In this document: one piece after another, positions 6,639-28,759 of the stretch
How positions within the stretch are numbered: position 1 is the stretch's first letter
Layout of the letters: each line of letters begins with the position of its first letter
IMG/VR virus record: IMGVR_UViG_3300032030_000143
Direction: 5' to 3' (one strand)
Length of the DNA: 44,759 nucleotides
Origin: a virus
Made by a program: the position numbers and the translations under genes
The notes under the pieces: generated by a model
Told to the model about the DNA's origin: nothing
Database searches by the model: none
What the model saw: the letters and a program-made list of their open reading frames with translations, nothing else

Positions 6639-6989
6639 GCTCAGCCTAACCGCCCGGGCGATTTGTTAAGAAATTATCAAATGATTTTTTAAAATATCCT
6701 CTTGACATTTCGCAAAACATTTGTTATACTATAATTGTTCCAAGGGAAAGCGAAGAGAAGCGAGAAGCCCAAAGAAGCCGGCAAAACGGGTGATGCAGTC
6801 GCCATACCACTACCCTATGGGATCAAGGGGGATTCTCTTGAATCGCGAGTCAAGCGGAGAGAGGGAAGAATGTTCCCGCCGATAAAAAGAAACCCCCTTG
6901 CTTTTTGAAATGAAATTCAAAATACCCTCTTGACAAAACTTAAAAAGTATGCTATAATAAATACAGAAAGTAAGAAAACAATTAAATAT

Positions 6990-7076
6990 GCGGGTATGGT
7001 GGAATAGGCAGACACCACAGACTTAAAATCTGTTGGCCGTAAGGCCGTGCCGGTTCAAGTCCGGCTACCCGCACCA
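6990..7076 (+). tRNA. tRNA-Leu (anticodon UAA), CCA encoded
   Basis: Cloverleaf with long variable arm; anticodon loop CTTAAAA; resembles E. coli leuZ; own promoter at 6935-6965. Confidence 0.85.
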
Positions 7077-7329
7077 ATAACCTCCCATCTCCTTTCTTTC
7101 TCTCCTTTCTCTTTTCGTGCGGTTCCTACCCTATGGGTAGGAATTGCGCCCGGGCAAAAGATTGTTAAATAAATAACTTACATAAAAAGTATTGACTTTT
7201 AGAGAAAAAAGAGTATAATAATAATTGTCAAGAGGAAGGATATAGCCCAAAAAAATAAATGACCGCGTGGGTGTTTCGTGCGGGATATAAAAACTCTTGA
7301 CATAAAAAATAATATAAAGGTGATAAAAA

Positions 7330-7614
7330 ATGAATATTATTGGTGGAATCTGGCTTATGACGACAGTCTTAGCTTTTTCTCTGTTTGTTTCTGTACATCT
7401 TACAGCAAAAGAAAAATTCCAAAAAAGACATCCAACGGCGAAAATAGAAAAGAGTCTAATTGGAGAAAAAATCTATGGATGTTTAATGGTTTTTGTTCTT
7501 ACAACTATACCAATTATTAATCTTCTTACTTTATTCACTTTGGCGACTCAGTATGATGATATTGTAGAAGGTACGATTTCTAAGGTAGAAAATAAAATTA
7601 TTTCAGAAGAATAA
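7330..7614 (+). CDS. membrane protein (2 TM) hypothetical
   Basis: ORF track; RBS AAAGGTGAT; canonical terminator at 7614-7645. Confidence 0.7.
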   Translation: MNIIGGIWLMTTVLAFSLFVSVHLTAKEKFQKRHPTAKIEKSLIGEKIYGCLMVFVLTTIPIINLLTLFTLATQYDDIVEGTISKVENKIISEE

Positions 7615-7645
7615 GGACTTTTATTAGTCCTTATTCTTTTTTTGG
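7614..7645 (+). terminator. rho-independent terminator
   Basis: GGACTTTTATTAGTCC hairpin plus T-run. Confidence 0.7.
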
Positions 7646-7710
7646 TTGAAAATTTTAAAAAAAAATTATATAATTATTATAGAAAATTAAAGAAAAGGAA
7701 TTGATAAAAA

Positions 7711-7962
7711 ATGATTGTTGCTAATAAGGAACTTAATAAGGAATTTAATGCTCACATTGATAATCTTGTGGCAAAGTGCCCGGGCGATAAGACCAAGGCT
7801 GAACTTTTCCATGAGTTTATGGCTAATGAAATGTTTAATTGTTCGGTTAATGAGAACTATTTTTATGAATTTACTCTTGCTTTTGAAGAGTTTCTATATT
7901 TTGCTTATCGAATGGATCCTGCGAATTTTAAGTATTTTGATTTGGATAGATTTTATTTTTAA
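7711..7962 (+). CDS. hypothetical protein (83 aa)
   Basis: ORF track; class II AT-rich promoter at 7646-7690; AAAGGAA RBS. Confidence 0.65.
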   Translation: MIVANKELNKEFNAHIDNLVAKCPGDKTKAELFHEFMANEMFNCSVNENYFYEFTLAFEEFLYFAYRMDPANFKYFDLDRFYF

Positions 7963-8020
7963 TTTCCTATTGACAAATGTCTTTCAAGATGTTATACTAT
8001 AACTGTCAGGAGGGATATTG

Positions 8021-8281
8021 ATGGAATTAAAAGAAATGATTCAAAAGCTTGCCAATGCACTTGATAAAGAAAGTGATTATTGGTGTAATTTTGCGGTAGC
8101 GAATACCACCAATCCGAATAAAATGATGTATGGTGCGGCGGTTGGTCGAGGAGCAACATACACTGAGGTTGCAATGTTGCTTAAGTTTATCCTTAATAAT
8201 GATACCGATAAATTTGAAGATTTTCTGGCTTCTTATAACGATATTAAAGAAAAATATCAGAAATTAGATGAAGGGAGATAA
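8021..8281 (+). CDS. hypothetical protein (86 aa)
   Basis: ORF track (ATG at 8021 after AGGAGGG); promoter at 7969-8003. Confidence 0.65.
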   Translation: MELKEMIQKLANALDKESDYWCNFAVANTTNPNKMMYGAAVGRGATYTEVAMLLKFILNNDTDKFEDFLASYNDIKEKYQKLDEGR

Positions 8282-8286
8282 TAAAA

Positions 8287-8616
8287 ATGGATATTAGAAA
8301 CATGCCTGCCAAAGCGGCTTATTACGAATTTGTCGTAGCAGTTCCTAATGCTGACCACTACACTTTTCTCGGTATGTATGCCGATGGGCATCAGGCCGAA
8401 AGAACTGCTCTTGAATACGGTGGGATTGTGATTCACAATGTGCGTGTTCATGGCTATCAGCCGCCTAAGTCTGAAAAAAAGTATTATACTTTTAGTGGCT
8501 CTTGGTCTTGGGGATGCTGGGCTACTGACATAGAAGATGCTGAAAAGCAATTTTCTGAGGCCTACGACGAAGAGATAGACATTGACTATGAGCATAAAAT
8601 TGAGGTAGATGAATAA
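8287..8616 (+). CDS. hypothetical acidic protein (109 aa)
   Basis: ORF track; GGGAGAT RBS; coupled to the upstream gene. Confidence 0.65.
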   Translation: MDIRNMPAKAAYYEFVVAVPNADHYTFLGMYADGHQAERTALEYGGIVIHNVRVHGYQPPKSEKKYYTFSGSWSWGCWATDIEDAEKQFSEAYDEEIDIDYEHKIEVDE

Positions 8617-26446: not shown

Positions 26447-26623
26447 ATGGATAAAAATAATTATCTTTTTATTTGTGTTTTGAAAATTCTTAAACACCGT
26501 GTTGAGACTGCGCATTCTCCGCAGACTAAAAATGCTTTGATTTTCGCTCATAATCTTTTGGTTTATGCACTTCGTAATGATACCGCCGCTATTGATGCGG
26601 CAATGGAGAAGGAAGGTTTATAA
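26447..26623 (+). CDS. small hypothetical protein (58 aa)
   Basis: GGGAGGTAT RBS; coupled to the upstream gene. Confidence 0.5.
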   Translation: MDKNNYLFICVLKILKHRVETAHSPQTKNALIFAHNLLVYALRNDTAAIDAAMEKEGL

Positions 26624-26624
26624 A

Positions 26625-26696
26625 ATGTTTGTTCGTGATTATGATGAAATGAAAGTTGATGAAGATACTGATGAAGTGTTATGGTGCGGCGAGTAA
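26625..26696 (+). CDS. micro-protein (23 aa), tentative
   Basis: ATG overlaps the upstream stop; a terminator hairpin follows. Confidence 0.3.
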   Translation: MFVRDYDEMKVDEDTDEVLWCGE

Positions 26697-26813
26697 GTCG
26701 CACCTAACTGCCCGGGCAGGAGATTGTTAATTTTTTAATTATTAAAAAAGGTATTGACAGATTAAAAATTATTTGTTATAATGATTACAGAAAACAGAAA
26801 AGGAGAATAAAAA

Positions 26814-27011
26814 ATGAAAATGTACGATTTTCTTTTTGAGTTTACCGAAGACAGCGATAATGAGGGTGAGCAGATTCTTGTCGAAGCATCAAGTCTTGAC
26901 AGTGCTTGGGCTTGTTTAGTATTTGACAATGGCTTTGAATTTAAGGAACTGCGTTTCATTGAGCAGATGGAAACTTGGGAAGGTGAACTTCTCGGCCTTG
27001 ATACTTATTAA
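26814..27011 (+). CDS. acidic hypothetical protein (65 aa)
   Basis: ORF track; promoter at 26755-26790; AAAAGGAGAAT RBS. Confidence 0.6.
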   Translation: MKMYDFLFEFTEDSDNEGEQILVEASSLDSAWACLVFDNGFEFKELRFIEQMETWEGELLGLDTY

Positions 27012-27024
27012 GAGGTGATTAAAA

Positions 27025-27294
27025 ATGATTAAATGGTTTTTCGGAAATACTCCTTTTGAATGTCAAATTTATACCAATAAATCTCCTACTTGGTATTGGC
27101 CTATATCGGAATATTATGAATTTGATTCATACAAATGGTCTGTTGGACTCGGTAAATACACTTTTTGTTGGGCTTTACCAAAATTAGGTAAAGACTATGT
27201 AATTACTCCTTGTGGAGATTATGTCTGGAAAAATCAAGATAATTGGAAAGACGCAAAACTACTTTGGGATATAGGATTAAGAGGAAAAGATTGA
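27025..27294 (+). CDS. Trp-rich hypothetical protein (89 aa)
   Basis: ORF track; AGAGGTGAT RBS; the 3' end carries the next promoter. Confidence 0.6.
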   Translation: MIKWFFGNTPFECQIYTNKSPTWYWPISEYYEFDSYKWSVGLGKYTFCWALPKLGKDYVITPCGDYVWKNQDNWKDAKLLWDIGLRGKD

Positions 27295-27350
27295 CAAATC
27301 CTTTTTAATCTGATATACTATAATCACCAAAAGGAAAGGAAAAATAAAAA

Positions 27351-27476
27351 ATGAAAATTTTTGAACGTTTTGAAGATGCTAATAAGGTTTGGCGACTTAA
27401 CTATACTTTCTTTCAGTTGCCTTGGTGGGTATGTATAGAAGCATACATTAGAAGTTTAATAAGGGGCGTTAAATAA
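27351..27476 (+). CDS. small hypothetical protein (41 aa)
   Basis: AAAGGAAAGGAAAAAT RBS; promoter at 27291-27325. Confidence 0.45.
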   Translation: MKIFERFEDANKVWRLNYTFFQLPWWVCIEAYIRSLIRGVK

Positions 27477-27775
27477 TGAAAGAATACTGGATTGATTTTT
27501 CTGGCTATCTGAAAGTGGAAGCAGAAAATGCTGATGAAGCAGAACGCAAATTTTGGCACGCCGTAAATACTCAATGCGGTTTTTGCGGGCGTGATGGATT
27601 TAGTGATGTCGTGTGGGATTTGGACGCCACAGAGGAAGTGTCTGATGACATTTATAATGGGTGGCACAAAGAAAATGTCGTTGATTTTCTTCTTGATAGA
27701 GAAGATGCACCGACCTTTGATAATCCCAACGCTCCCACTTTACAGGACATAGAAGATTTTTGGAACGATAAATAA
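27476..27775 (+). CDS. hypothetical protein (99 aa)
   Basis: ORF track; ATG overlaps the upstream TAA; canonical terminator at 27776-27806. Confidence 0.65.
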   Translation: MKEYWIDFSGYLKVEAENADEAERKFWHAVNTQCGFCGRDGFSDVVWDLDATEEVSDDIYNGWHKENVVDFLLDREDAPTFDNPNAPTLQDIEDFWNDK

Positions 27776-28759
27776 GGGGTGTATAATAATACACCCCTTT
27801 GAATAATGCCCGGGCAAATCGGCCCGGAGACGCCAGCGTAGGGCCGAACTTCCATTATATCATATTTTAGGAAAATTGTCAAGAGAAATTTTGCACAAAG
27901 ATCGGTTTACATAATTTCCCGAAACTGTGCACTTTGCTACGCTAAATCGCTAAAGTTTTTCCAACTTTTTCCAACCGCAGCGTTACGATCGAGGCCCGGC
28001 CGGTGAGCCTTGACAAAACCCCATATGCGGCTCGATTTTAAACAAAAGTGGGCTAGTATATGGCCCGATCGGTAAAAAAACTCCATATAAGCATTAAAAC
28101 TAGGCAAAAGTGAGCTTTTGCCTAGTTTTTTACTATTTTTCATCGTTTTTACACTAGTTTTACCGCATTTTTACTAGTTTTTTCGCATTTTTTGCGAAAA
28201 AAGCCGATCGGATACTTGATTTTTTAAAAAAAATTTGATATAATACCAAAAAAAACTATTTTTTTTAATGCCGCAATGTCGCCAAGAGGCAAAAATAATT
28301 GAAAAATAAGAAAAAATATGATATAATTTAAAAAAAAGACATTTTTTTTTGTGCCGCAAGGCGTTTCCAAGAGGTAAAGATAGTGCGGTTAATGAGATAA
28401 GCCGGCCGGTTTATTGAAAAATTAAAAAAAATATGATATAATATAAGTATATTAAGAAGCTAAAATTTTAATCTTTATTGCCTCGCAAAAAATTTTATGA
28501 TAAAAGTTTCATAGTTCTACTTTTTTCTTTAGTGCGGTTTACAAGACTACTACTGTTGTGAAGTCCTCGCAGTAAAAGAGAAAAAATTTTGCCCGATCGG
28601 TTCAGCAAGGCATAAGAGAATATAGTTGAAAAATTAAAAAAAATATTATATAATATATATGTAAATAAATGATAAAAGAAAAATATGAAAGGTAGGTTCC
28701 GTCCCTCCGGGCCCCTTTATCGCTTCGCGATAAAGAGTCCCTAAACGTTCGGAGAAATA

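What the first reader, a model, noticed from the sequence alone, without database searches (positions are those of the whole stretch)
6649..27815. Conserved palindromic intergenic cassette (CCGCCCGGGCGG + ATTGTTAAATAAATAACT) repeated about 30 times
Between almost every early transcription unit the same 90-bp layout recurs. It runs: variable terminator hairpin; [CT]AACCGCCCGGGCG[GA] palindrome; ATTGTTAAATAAATAACT; A/T tract; TTGAC promoter; one of a few fixed initial-transcribed sequences (ATAATTGTCAAGGGG, ATAATTGTTCCAAGGGA, ATAATGCCAAGAGGAAAG). Palindrome copies sit near 6649, 7147, 8629, 9626, 10089, 10421, 11381, 13084, 14004, 14811, 16213, 16946, 17744, 18641, 19591, 20236, 21221, 22138, 22931, 23299, 23841, 24983, 26158, 26710 and 27808. 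It could be a site for a dimeric regulator or activator placed about 60 bp upstream of +1, an RNA processing signal, or a recombination boundary enabling modular shuffling of early genes.
Basis: seen in the sequence. Interest (0 to 1): 0.65.

Follow-up and report, generated by a model that had tools for sequence, protein, structure and literature searches.

The report
Repeated boundary cassette in phage early genes
The early-gene region of an uncultured giant gut/rumen phage is divided into about 30 small units by a repeated hairpin–GCCCGGGC–promoter cassette, which also carries a match to the binding site of a host redox-sensing repressor (Rex), a new variant of the regulatory cassettes known from T4-like phages.

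Summary
Only the 8-mer is invariant, with a Y…R flank preference.

The AT-rich block is a separate palindrome, TTGTTAA-N4-TTAACAA. This equals the published clostridial Rex-box consensus. It starts 28-31 nt before the -35 element and overlaps a UP-like tract.

The octamer sits against an RNA-selected hairpin, in the position a terminator's U-tract would occupy. In some copies it sits inside a promoter spacer instead.

All 26 octamers with an orthologous position in an ~85%-identical 239.6-kb relative are unchanged. The layout recurs in more than 120 rumen and gut metagenome contigs. Sister lineages carry other palindromes in the same slots.

Best reading (confidence ~0.4): these are PeSL-like terminator-hairpin/promoter cassettes carrying two operators. 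The octamer is a unit-boundary site for a lineage-specific dimeric factor that stops or insulates host-RNA-polymerase transcription. The box is a Rex-type operator.

Whole modules bounded by octamers differ between relatives, but the breakpoint statistics are not significant.

An orphan protein family (5818-6177, 22483-22899) co-occurs with the octamer (P=6e-5).

No reader protein was demonstrated. An RNA-level function is a serious rival.

The parts
861..889 (+). Consensus promoter with the octamer (870-877) inside the 17-bp spacer, forming the palindrome AAATGCCCGGGCATTT
   Evidence: conserved in the relative
1877..1905 (+). Consensus promoter with the octamer (1886-1893) inside the spacer. 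In the relative this promoter is duplicated around a 502-bp extra module.
3233..3269 (+). Hairpin 3233-3254 plus octamer 3262-3269, lying in a 5' leader about 50 nt before an ATG
   Evidence: 95% identical in the relative
5145..5244 (+). Hairpin, octamer 5161-5168, promoter 5216-5244; no box
5699..5792 (+). Hairpin, octamer 5726-5733, promoter 5764-5792. This unit lies upstream of candidate gene 5818-6177.
6622..6730 (+). Full cassette: hairpin, octamer 6652-6659, Rex-like box 6663-6680 (1 mismatch), promoter 6702-6730
7119..7219 (+). Full cassette after tRNA-Leu: octamer 7148-7155, box 7162-7179, promoter 7192-7219
7778..7785 (+). Intragenic octamer (codons Cys-Pro-Gly of ORF 7711-7962), kept with identical codons in diverged homologues
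8598..8706 (+). Hairpin, octamer 8629-8636, promoter 8678-8706; no box
9599..9695 (+). Full cassette: perfect 12-mer CCGCCCGGGCGG (9625-9636), box 9638-9655, promoter 9667-9695
10090..10171 (+). Octamer 10090-10097, degenerate box, promoter 10143-10171; preceded by the canonical terminator 10031-10060
10394..10491 (+). Hairpin, octamer 10422-10429, degenerate box 10432-10449, promoter 10463-10491
11356..11450 (+). Full cassette: octamer 11381-11388, box 11392-11409, promoter 11422-11450
11939..12008 (+). Hairpin, octamer 11959-11966, promoter 11980-12008 (gap 13 nt, no box)
13058..13155 (+). Full cassette: octamer 13086-13093, box 13097-13114, promoter 13128-13155. Homology with the relative starts at the octamer.
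14006..14074 (+). Octamer 14006-14013, box 14017-14034, promoter 14047-14074. This starts a window-specific module.
14785..14880 (+). Full cassette: octamer 14813-14820, box 14824-14841, promoter 14853-14880. A synteny junction lies 6 nt upstream of the octamer.
16188..16282 (+). Full cassette: octamer 16215-16222, box 16226-16243, promoter 16255-16282
16920..17016 (+). Full cassette: octamer 16948-16955, box 16959-16976, promoter 16988-17016
17708..17813 (+). Hairpin, perfect 12-mer (17743-17754), degenerate box 17755-17772, promoter 17785-17813
18616..18716 (+). Full cassette: octamer 18643-18650, box 18657-18674 (1 mismatch), promoter from 18687. A synteny junction falls exactly at the octamer.
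19592..19649 (+). Octamer 19592-19599, T/A tract, promoter 19621-19649 (no box)
20214..20308 (+). Full cassette: octamer 20237-20244, box 20251-20268, promoter 20281-20308. The hairpin shows three compensatory pair changes against the relative.
21194..21291 (+). Full cassette after tRNA-Lys: octamer 21223-21230, box 21234-21251, promoter 21264-21291
22109..22201 (+). Full cassette after tRNA-Glu: octamer 22141-22148, box 22152-22169 (1 mismatch, starting 21 nt before -35), promoter 22173-22201
22906..23001 (+). Full cassette: octamer 22933-22940, box 22944-22961, promoter 22973-23001
23269..23371 (+). Full cassette: octamer 23299-23306, box 23314-23331, promoter 23344-23371. Homology with the relative ends 2 nt after the octamer.
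23817..23911 (+). Full cassette: perfect 12-mer (23841-23852), box 23854-23871, promoter 23884-23911. Homology with the relative starts at the octamer.
24951..25051 (+). Full cassette after tRNA-Asn: octamer 24984-24991, perfect Rex-consensus box 24995-25012 (TTGTTAAAACCTTAACAA), promoter 25023-25051
26136..26232 (+). Hairpin, octamer 26162-26169, T-rich tract, promoter 26204-26232 (no box)
26678..26782 (+). Full cassette: octamer 26710-26717, box 26724-26741, promoter 26754-26782
27774..27815 (+). Last unit: bidirectional terminator-like hairpin 27774-27799 and octamer 27808-27815. This is the right end of the array.
27765..27882 (-). Leftward consensus promoter (27882-27854), followed by a short hairpin RNA, the same octamer and the terminator. 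This is a gene-less promoter-hairpin-octamer unit.
5818..6177 (+). Orphan protein, paralogue 1 of the family that co-occurs with the octamer (a lead for the reader protein)
22483..22899 (+). Orphan protein, paralogue 2 of the same family

Best explanation
The window is a whole 44.8-kb metagenomic contig of an uncultured jumbo phage, probably infecting a Clostridia-like host. Positions 1-27.9 kb belong to a region inferred to be the host-RNA-polymerase-dependent early region, which spans about 38 kb in the relative. It is a one-directional array of about 60 consensus sigma-A promoters driving small orphan genes, tRNAs and untranslated leaders.

Each unit boundary carries a composite cassette in this order: an RNA hairpin closing the upstream unit, the octamer Y-GCCCGGGC-R, optionally an 18-bp palindrome TTGTTAA-N4-TTAACAA, an A/T (UP-like) tract, a consensus promoter, and a conserved initial transcribed sequence. 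In kind this is a PeSL-like terminator-hairpin/promoter cassette.

Proposed mechanism (inferred, not shown):
- The octamer is a double-stranded DNA site for a symmetric dimer encoded by this phage lineage. There is one site per unit boundary.
- It blocks or insulates host RNA polymerase. When it follows a hairpin that has no U-tract, it stops read-through. When it sits in a promoter spacer, it blocks initiation. This would be a stoperator-like or KorB-operator-like global control of the early array.
- The AT palindrome is a second, promoter-phased operator overlapping the UP element. Its consensus is that of clostridial Rex, so host Rex (an NADH/NAD+ sensor) is the leading candidate reader.
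- Because the cassettes are repeated, they also act as homology patches through which whole modules are gained, lost, duplicated and swapped.
For: Shown:
- Enrichment and exactness of the octamer. It is confined to the array.
- All 26 octamers with an orthologous position are unchanged at ~85% overall identity, while their flanking bases change.
- Flank preference is mirror-symmetric, Y at -1 and R at +1, despite unrelated neighbours. This fits a symmetric reader.
- The octamer and the box are separable: the gap between them is 3, 6 or 7 nt, and the octamer-to--35 gap runs from -18 to >60.
- 24 family copies are centred in promoter spacers, 2 of them in the window.
- The octamer also occurs in a 5' leader (3262) and near gene starts with codons held constant.
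- The hairpin abuts the octamer in 175 of 191 cases. A T-tract follows the hairpin in 2.6% of cases, against 45% in octamer-free sister cassettes.
- Canonical terminators are not enriched in 1-20000 (25 terminator-like sites found against 17.2 expected, only a few of them on the + strand).
- The box equals the published Rex consensus (PMC4600107, PMC9600882). The window holds 1 perfect, 3 one-mismatch and 8 two-mismatch copies, all starting 21-39 nt before -35.
- Across the family the consensus occurs 10, 17 and 68 times at 0, 1 and 2 mismatches, against 0, 0.2 and 13.6 expected.
- Sister lineages carry other strong palindromes in the same slot, which marks it as an operator slot.
- Module gain, loss, replacement and translocation occur, bounded by octamers.
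- An orphan protein family is present in 17 of 26 octamer-rich loci against 3 of 27 octamer-free loci (P=5.6e-5). It ranks top of 52 families. Four other shared early families show no association.
Against: - The tight coupling to an RNA-selected hairpin and the gene-less promoter-hairpin-octamer unit point as much to a transcript-level signal.
- A protein roadblock at the octamer would stall polymerase before the hairpin is complete (my inference from known roadblock geometry), so the hairpin and the octamer cannot cooperate in that simple way.
- In most window copies the right half of the box is degenerate (ATAACT). The region also fits a UP element at about 11 of 14 positions by inspection.
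- The box start shifts by about 8 nt between lineages (29-30 against 37-40), which is not one helical turn.
- The host is unknown. Both genome-collection scans were empty.
Confidence: 0.4

Rival explanations
1. The signal is read in the transcript. Hairpin plus GCCCGGGC is an RNA-level unit-end signal that replaces the U-tract. It could be a factor-dependent termination, pause or endonucleolytic processing site that leaves the hairpin as a protective 3' end. It could also be a self-complementary pairing site, since any two octamer RNAs, including the small leftward RNA at 27.8 kb, can form an 8-10-bp G+C duplex stacked on the hairpin.
For: - Hairpin stems evolve as RNA on the + strand. The substitution rate is 5.0% in stems against 13.8% in unpaired positions, with 14 G-U/Watson-Crick switches against 3 of the A-C type and compensatory changes.
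- The octamer lies <=5 nt from the stem in 92% of cases and occupies the U-tract position.
- A conserved promoter-hairpin-octamer unit without a gene exists.
- The octamer is present in a 5' leader and just after start codons.
- The Y/R flanks would extend a self-duplex.
Against: - A palindrome is not needed for recognition by an RNA-binding protein or by a trans RNA.
- 24 family copies sit in promoter spacers without an abutting hairpin.
- In L001, T-tract terminators precede the octamer, which would leave it mostly untranscribed.
- In the predicted fold of the small RNA, the octamer is partly paired internally.
Confidence: 0.25
2. The primary role is recombination. The octamer, with its neighbouring hairpin, is the crossover core of a cassette-exchange system that shuffles early-gene modules. 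This could be an integron-attC-like site or a nuclease-initiated exchange at a SrfI-like site.
For: - Loss of homology within 0-6 nt of the octamer at 13086, 14813, 18643 and 23843 (left side) and at 23299 (right side).
- Modules bounded by octamers are inserted (R12), replaced (W27/R39, W24/R36) or moved (R18~W24).
- Paralogous modules exist within the window.
- The array is co-oriented and made of orphan genes.
- G-T-tolerant, strand-specific hairpins would also fit folded single-stranded DNA.
Against: - Breakpoints are not significantly closer to octamers than random non-coding positions: 4 of 35 within 10 nt against a null of 8.5% (P=0.35). There is only a weak second cluster at the downstream edge of the cassette (P=0.06).
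- Ordinary homologous recombination between ~85-bp repeated cassettes, as for PeSLs, explains the same junctions.
- No recombinase or nuclease was found among the early ORFs.
- Each module has its own promoter, unlike integron cassettes.
Confidence: 0.1
3. The AT-rich block is only a UP element (a docking site for the polymerase alpha subunit) kept similar by common descent. It is not a regulator site, and Rex plays no part.
For: - Positions about -59 to -38 match the UP consensus at roughly 11 of 14 positions (by inspection).
- Many cassette promoters lack the TG extension and could depend on UP.
- The right half-site is degenerate in most window copies.
Against: - The conserved G and C lie at mirror positions 3 and 16, and perfect 18-bp palindromes occur in four or more lineages. 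UP elements are not palindromic.
- The exact Rex consensus is enriched, with 10 perfect copies against 0 expected.
- The same slot holds unrelated perfect palindromes in sister lineages, for example TTAGATGTTAAACATCTAA about 100 times.
Confidence: 0.2
4. The octamer has no function of its own. It hitch-hikes as the left edge of a mobile promoter cassette and is kept uniform by duplication and gene conversion.
For: - The cassettes are clearly duplicated. One example is 95.9% identity between window 20237-20574 and a non-orthologous site in the relative.
- Cassette families co-vary in all their parts.
Against: - All 26 octamers with an orthologous position are intact while adjacent bases vary.
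- The octamer occurs without the rest of the cassette: in promoter spacers, in a leader and in coding sequence.
- It is kept in lineages whose genes are only 30-55% identical.
Confidence: 0.05

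Closest known systems
PeSLs (promoter-early stem-loops) of T4-type phages (Arbiol et al. 2010, PMC2839356; Comeau et al. 2014, PMC4122927)
   Same: - Repeated small cassettes made of a consensus host promoter, an AT-rich upstream tract and a stem-loop.
- The G+C-rich element lies either upstream of -35 or between -35 and -10.
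- They are concentrated in plastic regions full of orphan genes.
- Insertions, deletions and replacements between close relatives are bounded by cassettes.
   Different: - The phage group and host are unrelated.
- Here an invariant 8-bp palindrome sits between the hairpin and the promoter, and a second palindromic operator is phased to -35.
- The hairpins lack U-tracts.
- Terminator activity and mini-circles were shown for PeSLs and not here.
- The breakpoint statistics here are not significant.
Stoperators of cluster A mycobacteriophages (L5/Bxb1 repressor sites; e.g. PMC9283540)
   Same: - Tens of copies of one short site are spread through short intergenic regions of a phage genome.
- The same site also serves inside an early promoter.
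- The proposed action is to block initiation and elongation.
   Different: - Stoperators are asymmetric 13-14-mers, orientation-dependent, and bound by a monomeric immunity repressor of temperate phages.
- Here the site is a symmetric 8-10-mer confined to the early array of an apparently lytic jumbo phage.
- No repressor has been identified here.
KorB operators (OB) of IncP plasmids (own knowledge)
   Same: A perfectly conserved palindrome at many sites and at variable distance from promoters, working together with a second promoter-proximal palindromic operator (KorA OA).
   Different: No ParB/KorB-like protein was found in the window. The sequence is different and the replicon is a phage.
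Rex operators of Clostridia (TTGTTAANNNNTTAACAA; PMC4600107, PMC9600882)
   Same: The 18-bp consensus is identical. Typical mismatch numbers are as good as or better than those of predicted host sites. The sites lie in promoter regions.
   Different: The sites are on a phage, in about 20 copies per genome, upstream of -35 and not over the core promoter. Rex binding and the host are untested.
Host-takeover module of Bacillus phage SPO1 (own knowledge)
   Same: A dense one-directional array of very strong host-type promoters with small early genes in a large phage of Gram-positive bacteria.
   Different: To my knowledge, no invariant boundary palindrome or Rex-type box has been described there.

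Membership tests
PeSL-type regulatory cassette | Consensus sigma-70/sigma-A early promoter with an AT-rich tract upstream of -35 | tested here: met
   29 of 32 octamers have a TTGAC-N17-19-TAnnnT promoter within 140 nt, with A/T tracts before -35
PeSL-type regulatory cassette | Stable stem-loop next to or inside the promoter | tested here: met
   Mean MFE -13.7 against -5.6 kcal/mol at random positions. Stems are under RNA-type selection.
PeSL-type regulatory cassette | Concentrated in plastic regions, upstream of orphan genes | tested here: met
   59 small ORFs gave 13 Pfam family matches at E<=0.01, only about 5 of them above the curated cut-off. There are many indels against the 85% relative.
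PeSL-type regulatory cassette | Indel and replacement junctions between close relatives fall in the cassettes | tested here: inconclusive
   Exact junctions occur at 5-6 cassettes and whole-module swaps exist. However, only 4 of 35 breakpoints lie within 10 nt of an octamer against a null of 8.5%, P=0.35.
PeSL-type regulatory cassette | Stem-loop terminates transcription; mini-circles form | not testable with these tools
   Needs reporter assays or PCR on infected cells
Intrinsic (Rho-independent) terminator | U-tract directly after the hairpin | tested here: not met
   5 of 191 hairpins before octamers have >=5 T in the next 9 nt. Terminator-like sites are not enriched over shuffles in 1-20000, and only a few lie on the + strand.
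Rex operator (Clostridia type) | 18-bp inverted repeat matching TTGTTAANNNNTTAACAA in a promoter region | tested here: met
   Window: 1 perfect, 3 one-mismatch and 8 two-mismatch copies. Family: 10, 17 and 68 against 0, 0.2 and 13.6 expected. Consensus taken from PMC4600107 and PMC9600882.
Rex operator (Clostridia type) | Bound by Rex and released by NADH; host encodes Rex | not testable with these tools
   Host unknown. No Rex domain among the early ORFs.
Stoperator (cluster A mycobacteriophages) | Many copies of one site in intergenic regions, and the same site in an early promoter | tested here: met
   27 of 39 intergenic gaps carry an octamer. 2 window copies and 24 family copies lie in promoter spacers.
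Stoperator (cluster A mycobacteriophages) | Asymmetric 13-14-bp site with one orientation relative to transcription | tested here: not met
   The site is a perfect palindrome with mirror-symmetric flanks
KorB/ParB-type operator system | ParB-family reader protein encoded by the element | tested here: not met
   No ParB domain in 59 early ORFs. The rest of the genome was not available.
Integron attC | Conserved RYYYAAC / GTTRRRY cores flanking a variable hairpin; promoterless cassettes; IntI integrase | tested here: not met
   The core is GCCCGGGC on one side of the hairpin only, every module has its own promoter, and no integrase lies in the window
UP element | A/T-rich match to the -59..-38 consensus | tested here: met
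   About 11 of 14 consensus positions for cassette 9627, by inspection. This overlaps the right half of the box.

The most novel reading that the evidence does not exclude
Hairpin + Y-GCCCGGGC-R is a new kind of sequence-specific, factor-read unit-end signal. In this phage lineage it has replaced the U-tract of intrinsic terminators. It would be read, as DNA or as RNA, by the co-occurring orphan protein family (5818-6177 / 22483-22899). This would give the phage switchable termination or insulation at every early gene boundary. In parallel, the early promoters would be wired to the host NADH/NAD+ sensor Rex.
Probability: 0.2. Interest if true: 0.8.

Novelty: new variant of a known kind. Interest (0 to 1): 0.6.

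Why it matters
If the reading is right, it would show three things.
- A widespread, uncultured family of giant gut and rumen phages organises its host-takeover genes with a compact, reusable control cassette.
- Unit boundaries in that cassette are marked by a strict palindrome in place of a terminator U-tract.
- The early promoters carry operators for a host metabolic sensor, Rex. That would be a direct way for a lytic phage to read, or to titrate, the host's redox state.

It also extends the PeSL idea, mobile promoter/terminator cassettes as drivers of gene shuffling, from T4-like phages of Gram-negative bacteria to an unrelated phage group. The lineage-specific swaps of both palindromes form a natural experiment for finding the cognate readers.

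Tried and rejected
- **Known phages.** A megablast of 5 kb against 50,697 phage records gave no match. Only a distant protein match of the vault-like gene to huge uncultured phages was found.
- **Bacterial and archaeal genomes.** The composite pattern was absent from 596 Gb. No relative of the PcfJ-like protein was found there, so no host clue emerged. An exact-protein contig look-up was also empty.
- **Rfam.** At gathering and at E<=0.1 thresholds, only 4 tRNAs were found. The long leaders match no known RNA family.
- **Octamer as a small hairpin or terminator of its own.** Rejected, because the flanks are not complementary and it is sequence-invariant, not structure-invariant.
- **Canonical terminator reading of the hairpins.** Rejected.
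- **Helical phasing of the box.** The offsets 21, 29-30 and 37-40 differ by about 8 nt, not 10.5, so no claim is made.
- **Canonical Rex boxes (TTGTGAA type).** A first count looked common, but strict classification leaves 3.
- **Breakpoint enrichment at octamers.** Not significant.
- **Extended pairing of TAAC with GTTA around the octamer, and an attC-like core.** Not conserved across copies.
- **wHTH-like paralogues and the AbrB-like protein as octamer readers.** Neither co-occurs with the octamer.
- **Fold of the co-occurring family.** No convincing match.
- **Families specific to GCCGGC-type lineages.** None is homologous to the candidate.
- **Literature.** Searches for GCCCGGGC repeats in phages returned only primers.

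Full report
**1. The observation**

GCCCGGGC occurs 32 times in the window against 0.11 expected. All copies lie between 870 and 27815. Only three one-mismatch copies exist against 4.9 expected, so within this genome the motif is all-or-none. CCCGGG occurs almost nowhere outside the octamer.

Seven further copies were missed: 870, 1886, 3262, 5161, 5726, 7778 and 11959.

The invariant unit is the 8-mer.

ATTGTTAAATAAATAACT occurs 15 times at <=3 mismatches, against 0.47 expected. The three fixed initial transcribed sequences occur 6, 5 and 2 times. About two thirds of the octamers carry the complete layout.

27 of 39 intergenic gaps carry an octamer, and one copy is inside a gene.

The surrounding 1-27.4 kb holds about 59 near-consensus TTGAC-N17-19-TAnnnT promoters on the + strand, against 3 on the minus strand. 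It also holds four tRNA genes and about 60 small ORFs with few Pfam matches.

**2. What the sequence is**

The window is a complete 44,759-nt metagenomic contig (longest contig of P0001). No known phage matches it at the DNA level.

An ~85%-identical relative is a 239.6-kb IMG/VR contig. There the array spans about 38 kb, carries 51 octamers, and forms a ~40% G+C island between 26-30% G+C flanks.

Several features point to a Bacillota, probably Clostridia-like, host. The promoters are sigma-A type, the ribosome-binding sites are strong, and the window encodes a SpoVT/AbrB-type protein (E 1e-18) and a PcfJ-like protein. The related contigs come from rumen and human-gut samples. This host assignment is an inference; two genome-collection scans gave nothing.

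**3. Anatomy: two separable palindromes**

Alignment on the octamer shows that only GCCCGGGC is fixed. Over 302 distinct family copies, position -1 is Y in 85% and position +1 is R in 83%. This is a mirror-symmetric preference, even though the neighbours on the two sides are unrelated.

The AT-rich block is a palindrome, TTGTTAA-N4-TTAACAA. The window has one perfect copy at 24995-25012, 3 copies with one mismatch and 8 with two. Its start is fixed 28-31 nt before TTGAC, with rare copies at 21 or 39 nt. The octamer-to-box gap is 3, 6 or 7 nt. The octamer-to--35 gap ranges from -18 to beyond 60.

Two window copies (870, 1886) lie inside promoter spacers. One relative (L014) has about ten such copies, and the family has 24.

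**4. The hairpins**

The 40 nt before an octamer fold with a mean of -13.7 kcal/mol, against -5.6 at random positions.

In 19 orthologous pairs, stems change at 5.0% and unpaired positions at 13.8%. Of 20 changed pairs, 14 are G-U/Watson-Crick switches valid on the + strand, 3 are of the A-C type, and 1 is a double change. Hairpin 20214-20236 adds three compensatory changes. These are therefore RNA structures of + strand transcripts, or possibly single-stranded DNA structures.

They are not canonical terminators. In the family, the stem ends <=5 nt from the octamer in 175 of 191 cases, and a T-tract follows in only 5 of 191. In sister cassettes that lack the octamer, 43 of 96 hairpins have a T-tract. 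Consensus terminators are few on the + strand. The octamer thus sits where the U-tract would be.

**5. Conservation and family**

All 26 octamers with an orthologous position are intact in the relative, although the bases touching them change.

This probe is independent of the upstream elements. Upstream of this promoter the two slots vary by lineage:
- GCCCGGGC with the TTGTTAA-type box or an AATATATTATTT box.
- GCCGGC/GGCCGGCC hairpin stems with a TTGTATACA box.
- TTAGRYGT-N3-ACRYCTAA (about 100 copies) with no G+C element.
- TTGCACAAA…TTTGTGCAA.

This variation marks both positions as recognition slots with lineage-specific readers.

**6. The Rex lead**

TTGTTAANNNNTTAACAA is the published Rex-box consensus of Clostridiaceae (PMC4600107, PMC9600882). 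The canonical consensus is TTGTGAANNNNTTCACAA.

In 828 kb of family DNA the clostridial consensus occurs 10, 17 and 68 times at 0, 1 and 2 mismatches. Block shuffles predict 0, 0.2 and 13.6. Two perfect canonical boxes also occur.

The box overlaps a good UP-element match (inspection). A bound protein would therefore compete with the polymerase alpha subunit. That step is inferred.

No Rex domain is encoded among the early ORFs. Whether host Rex, a phage protein or only the alpha subunit reads the box is open.

**7. Recombination**

Compared with the relative, homology stops within 0-6 nt of the octamer at 13086, 14813, 18643 and 23843, and 2 nt after it at 23299.

Octamer-bounded modules are extra (R12), replaced (W27/R39, W24/R36) or moved (R18~W24). 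One non-orthologous cassette pair is 95.9% identical.

This matches PeSL behaviour in T4-type phages (PMC2839356; PMC4122927).

A formal test is not significant. 4 of 35 breakpoints lie within 10 nt of an octamer, against a null of 8.5% for non-coding positions (P=0.35). 6 of 35 lie at the downstream cassette edge (P=0.06). I therefore treat shuffling as a consequence of repeated cassettes, not as a demonstrated function of the octamer.

**8. Who reads the octamer?**

Pfam shows no ParB, Rex or classical repressor.

Clustering 1,833 ORFs from the family loci gives one family (window 5818-6177 and 22483-22899) present in 17 of 26 octamer-rich loci and 3 of 27 octamer-free loci of >=5 kb. P=5.6e-5, the best of 52 families. 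The wHTH-like, exonuclease-like, AbrB-like and NT5C families show no association.

This is a lead only, because shared ancestry could produce the association.

**9. DNA or RNA?**

For a double-stranded DNA site read by a symmetric dimer:
- the perfect palindrome with symmetric flanks;
- copies centred in promoter spacers;
- copies after T-tract terminators in L001.

For a transcript-level signal:
- the tight coupling to an RNA-selected hairpin in the U-tract position;
- a conserved leftward consensus promoter at 27882 that transcribes only a short hairpin, the last octamer and a terminator;
- octamers in a 5' leader and just after start codons, with codons held constant.

I rank the DNA-operator reading first (stoperator-like or KorB-operator-like boundary control) at about 0.4. 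The RNA-level reading follows at about 0.25. A dedicated recombination core is at about 0.1.

**10. Comparison and novelty**

In kind, this is a PeSL-like composite cassette. It lies in an unrelated phage group and has three additions:
- an invariant boundary palindrome that replaces the U-tract;
- a promoter-phased operator with the host Rex consensus;
- lineage-specific replacement of both.

It fails the defining features of stoperators (asymmetry), intrinsic terminators (U-tract), attC sites and KorB systems (no ParB in the window); see the membership table. I found no description of it in the literature.

I classify it as a new variant of a known kind, with interest 0.6.

Noticed in passing
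window 13128-13500, 20281-20640, 21264-21530, 23884-24400: Stacks of two to four tandem consensus promoters spaced about 110-150 nt apart. The internal ones carry a different spacer palindrome (CCACA-N3-5-TGTGG). Three stacks precede paralogous ~130-aa genes (13519-13944, 20658-21047, 24402-24782) with weak winged-helix (PaaX/MarR) similarity. This suggests autoregulated repressors and a third operator type.
   Followed up: partly
window 21530-21990: A stretch of about 460 nt without an ORF lies between a consensus promoter and tRNA-Glu. It is 85.7% conserved in the relative, but at a different position there (REL 13489-13885). It has no Rfam match and may be a large structured RNA.
   Followed up: partly
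window 27765-27882 (minus strand): A leftward consensus promoter drives an RNA of about 80 nt: a hairpin, the octamer, then a bidirectional terminator. Fold z-score is -4.3. The arrangement is conserved in REL, L133, L088, L054 and L001. It may be a small RNA carrying the self-complementary octamer.
   Followed up: partly
window 9333-9602: An early 89-aa protein whose first ~50 residues are nearly identical to the DNA-binding domain of SpoVT/AbrB (E 1e-18). It is conserved in several relatives but not associated with the octamer. It may be a phage mimic of a host transition-state or sporulation regulator.
   Followed up: partly
window 5818-6177 and 22483-22899: An orphan two-paralogue protein family (599 metagenomic homologues, no Pfam, no fold match) whose presence tracks octamer-rich lineages (17/26 against 3/27).
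   Followed up: yes
window 6990-7147, 21089-21222, 21993-22140, 24824-24983: Four tRNA genes (Leu, Lys, Glu, Asn) are embedded as early units. Each is followed by a C/T-rich, G-poor tract and then one of two nearly identical hairpins (ttcctaccctatgggtaggaa; ctctaccactttaatgtggtagag) before the octamer.
   Followed up: no
window 27.9-33.2 kb: G+C drops from ~40% to ~30% at 28 kb and the GC skew reverses at 29-31 kb. Few ORFs are present. This 4-kb stretch is not conserved at DNA level with the 85% relative, although both flanks are.
   Followed up: no
window 33212-35554: A 780-aa protein with major-vault-protein shoulder and repeat domains (Pfam E 1.7e-20). It is ~40% identical to proteins of 462-735-kb uncultured huge phages (LR756500/1/3).
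   Followed up: partly
metagenome loci L018-L136: The -10 plus initial transcribed sequence TATACTATAATTGTTCCAAG(GG) is conserved across more than 119 contigs whose upstream operators differ. Sister lineages use TTAGRYGT-N3-ACRYCTAA, ATTGTATACAGTATAC behind a conserved GCGGGCCGGC…GCCGGCCCGC hairpin, or TTGCACAAA…TTTGTGCAA.
   Followed up: partly
window 7778-7785; L014, L016, L017, L087, L106: Octamers inside two gene families (encoding Cys-Pro-Gly, and Ala-Arg-Ala 15 nt after the ATG) keep identical codons across diverged homologues, while nearby synonymous sites vary.
   Followed up: partly
window 11150-11368; 1943-2377 and 4698-5153: A PC4-like single-stranded-DNA-binding protein (Pfam E 1.8e-9) and a paralogous 'MYAI…' family are also restricted to octamer-rich lineages (8/0 and 7/0 loci). 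The MYAI paralogues are the genes whose promoter spacer (1886) or leader (3262) carries the octamer.
   Followed up: partly
L001 and L014 (relatives): Many terminator hairpins have the next promoter's -35 hexamer TTGACA in their loop (for example ggggcTTGACAaataaagcccc). Terminator and promoter therefore overlap, as in one PeSL subclass.
   Followed up: no
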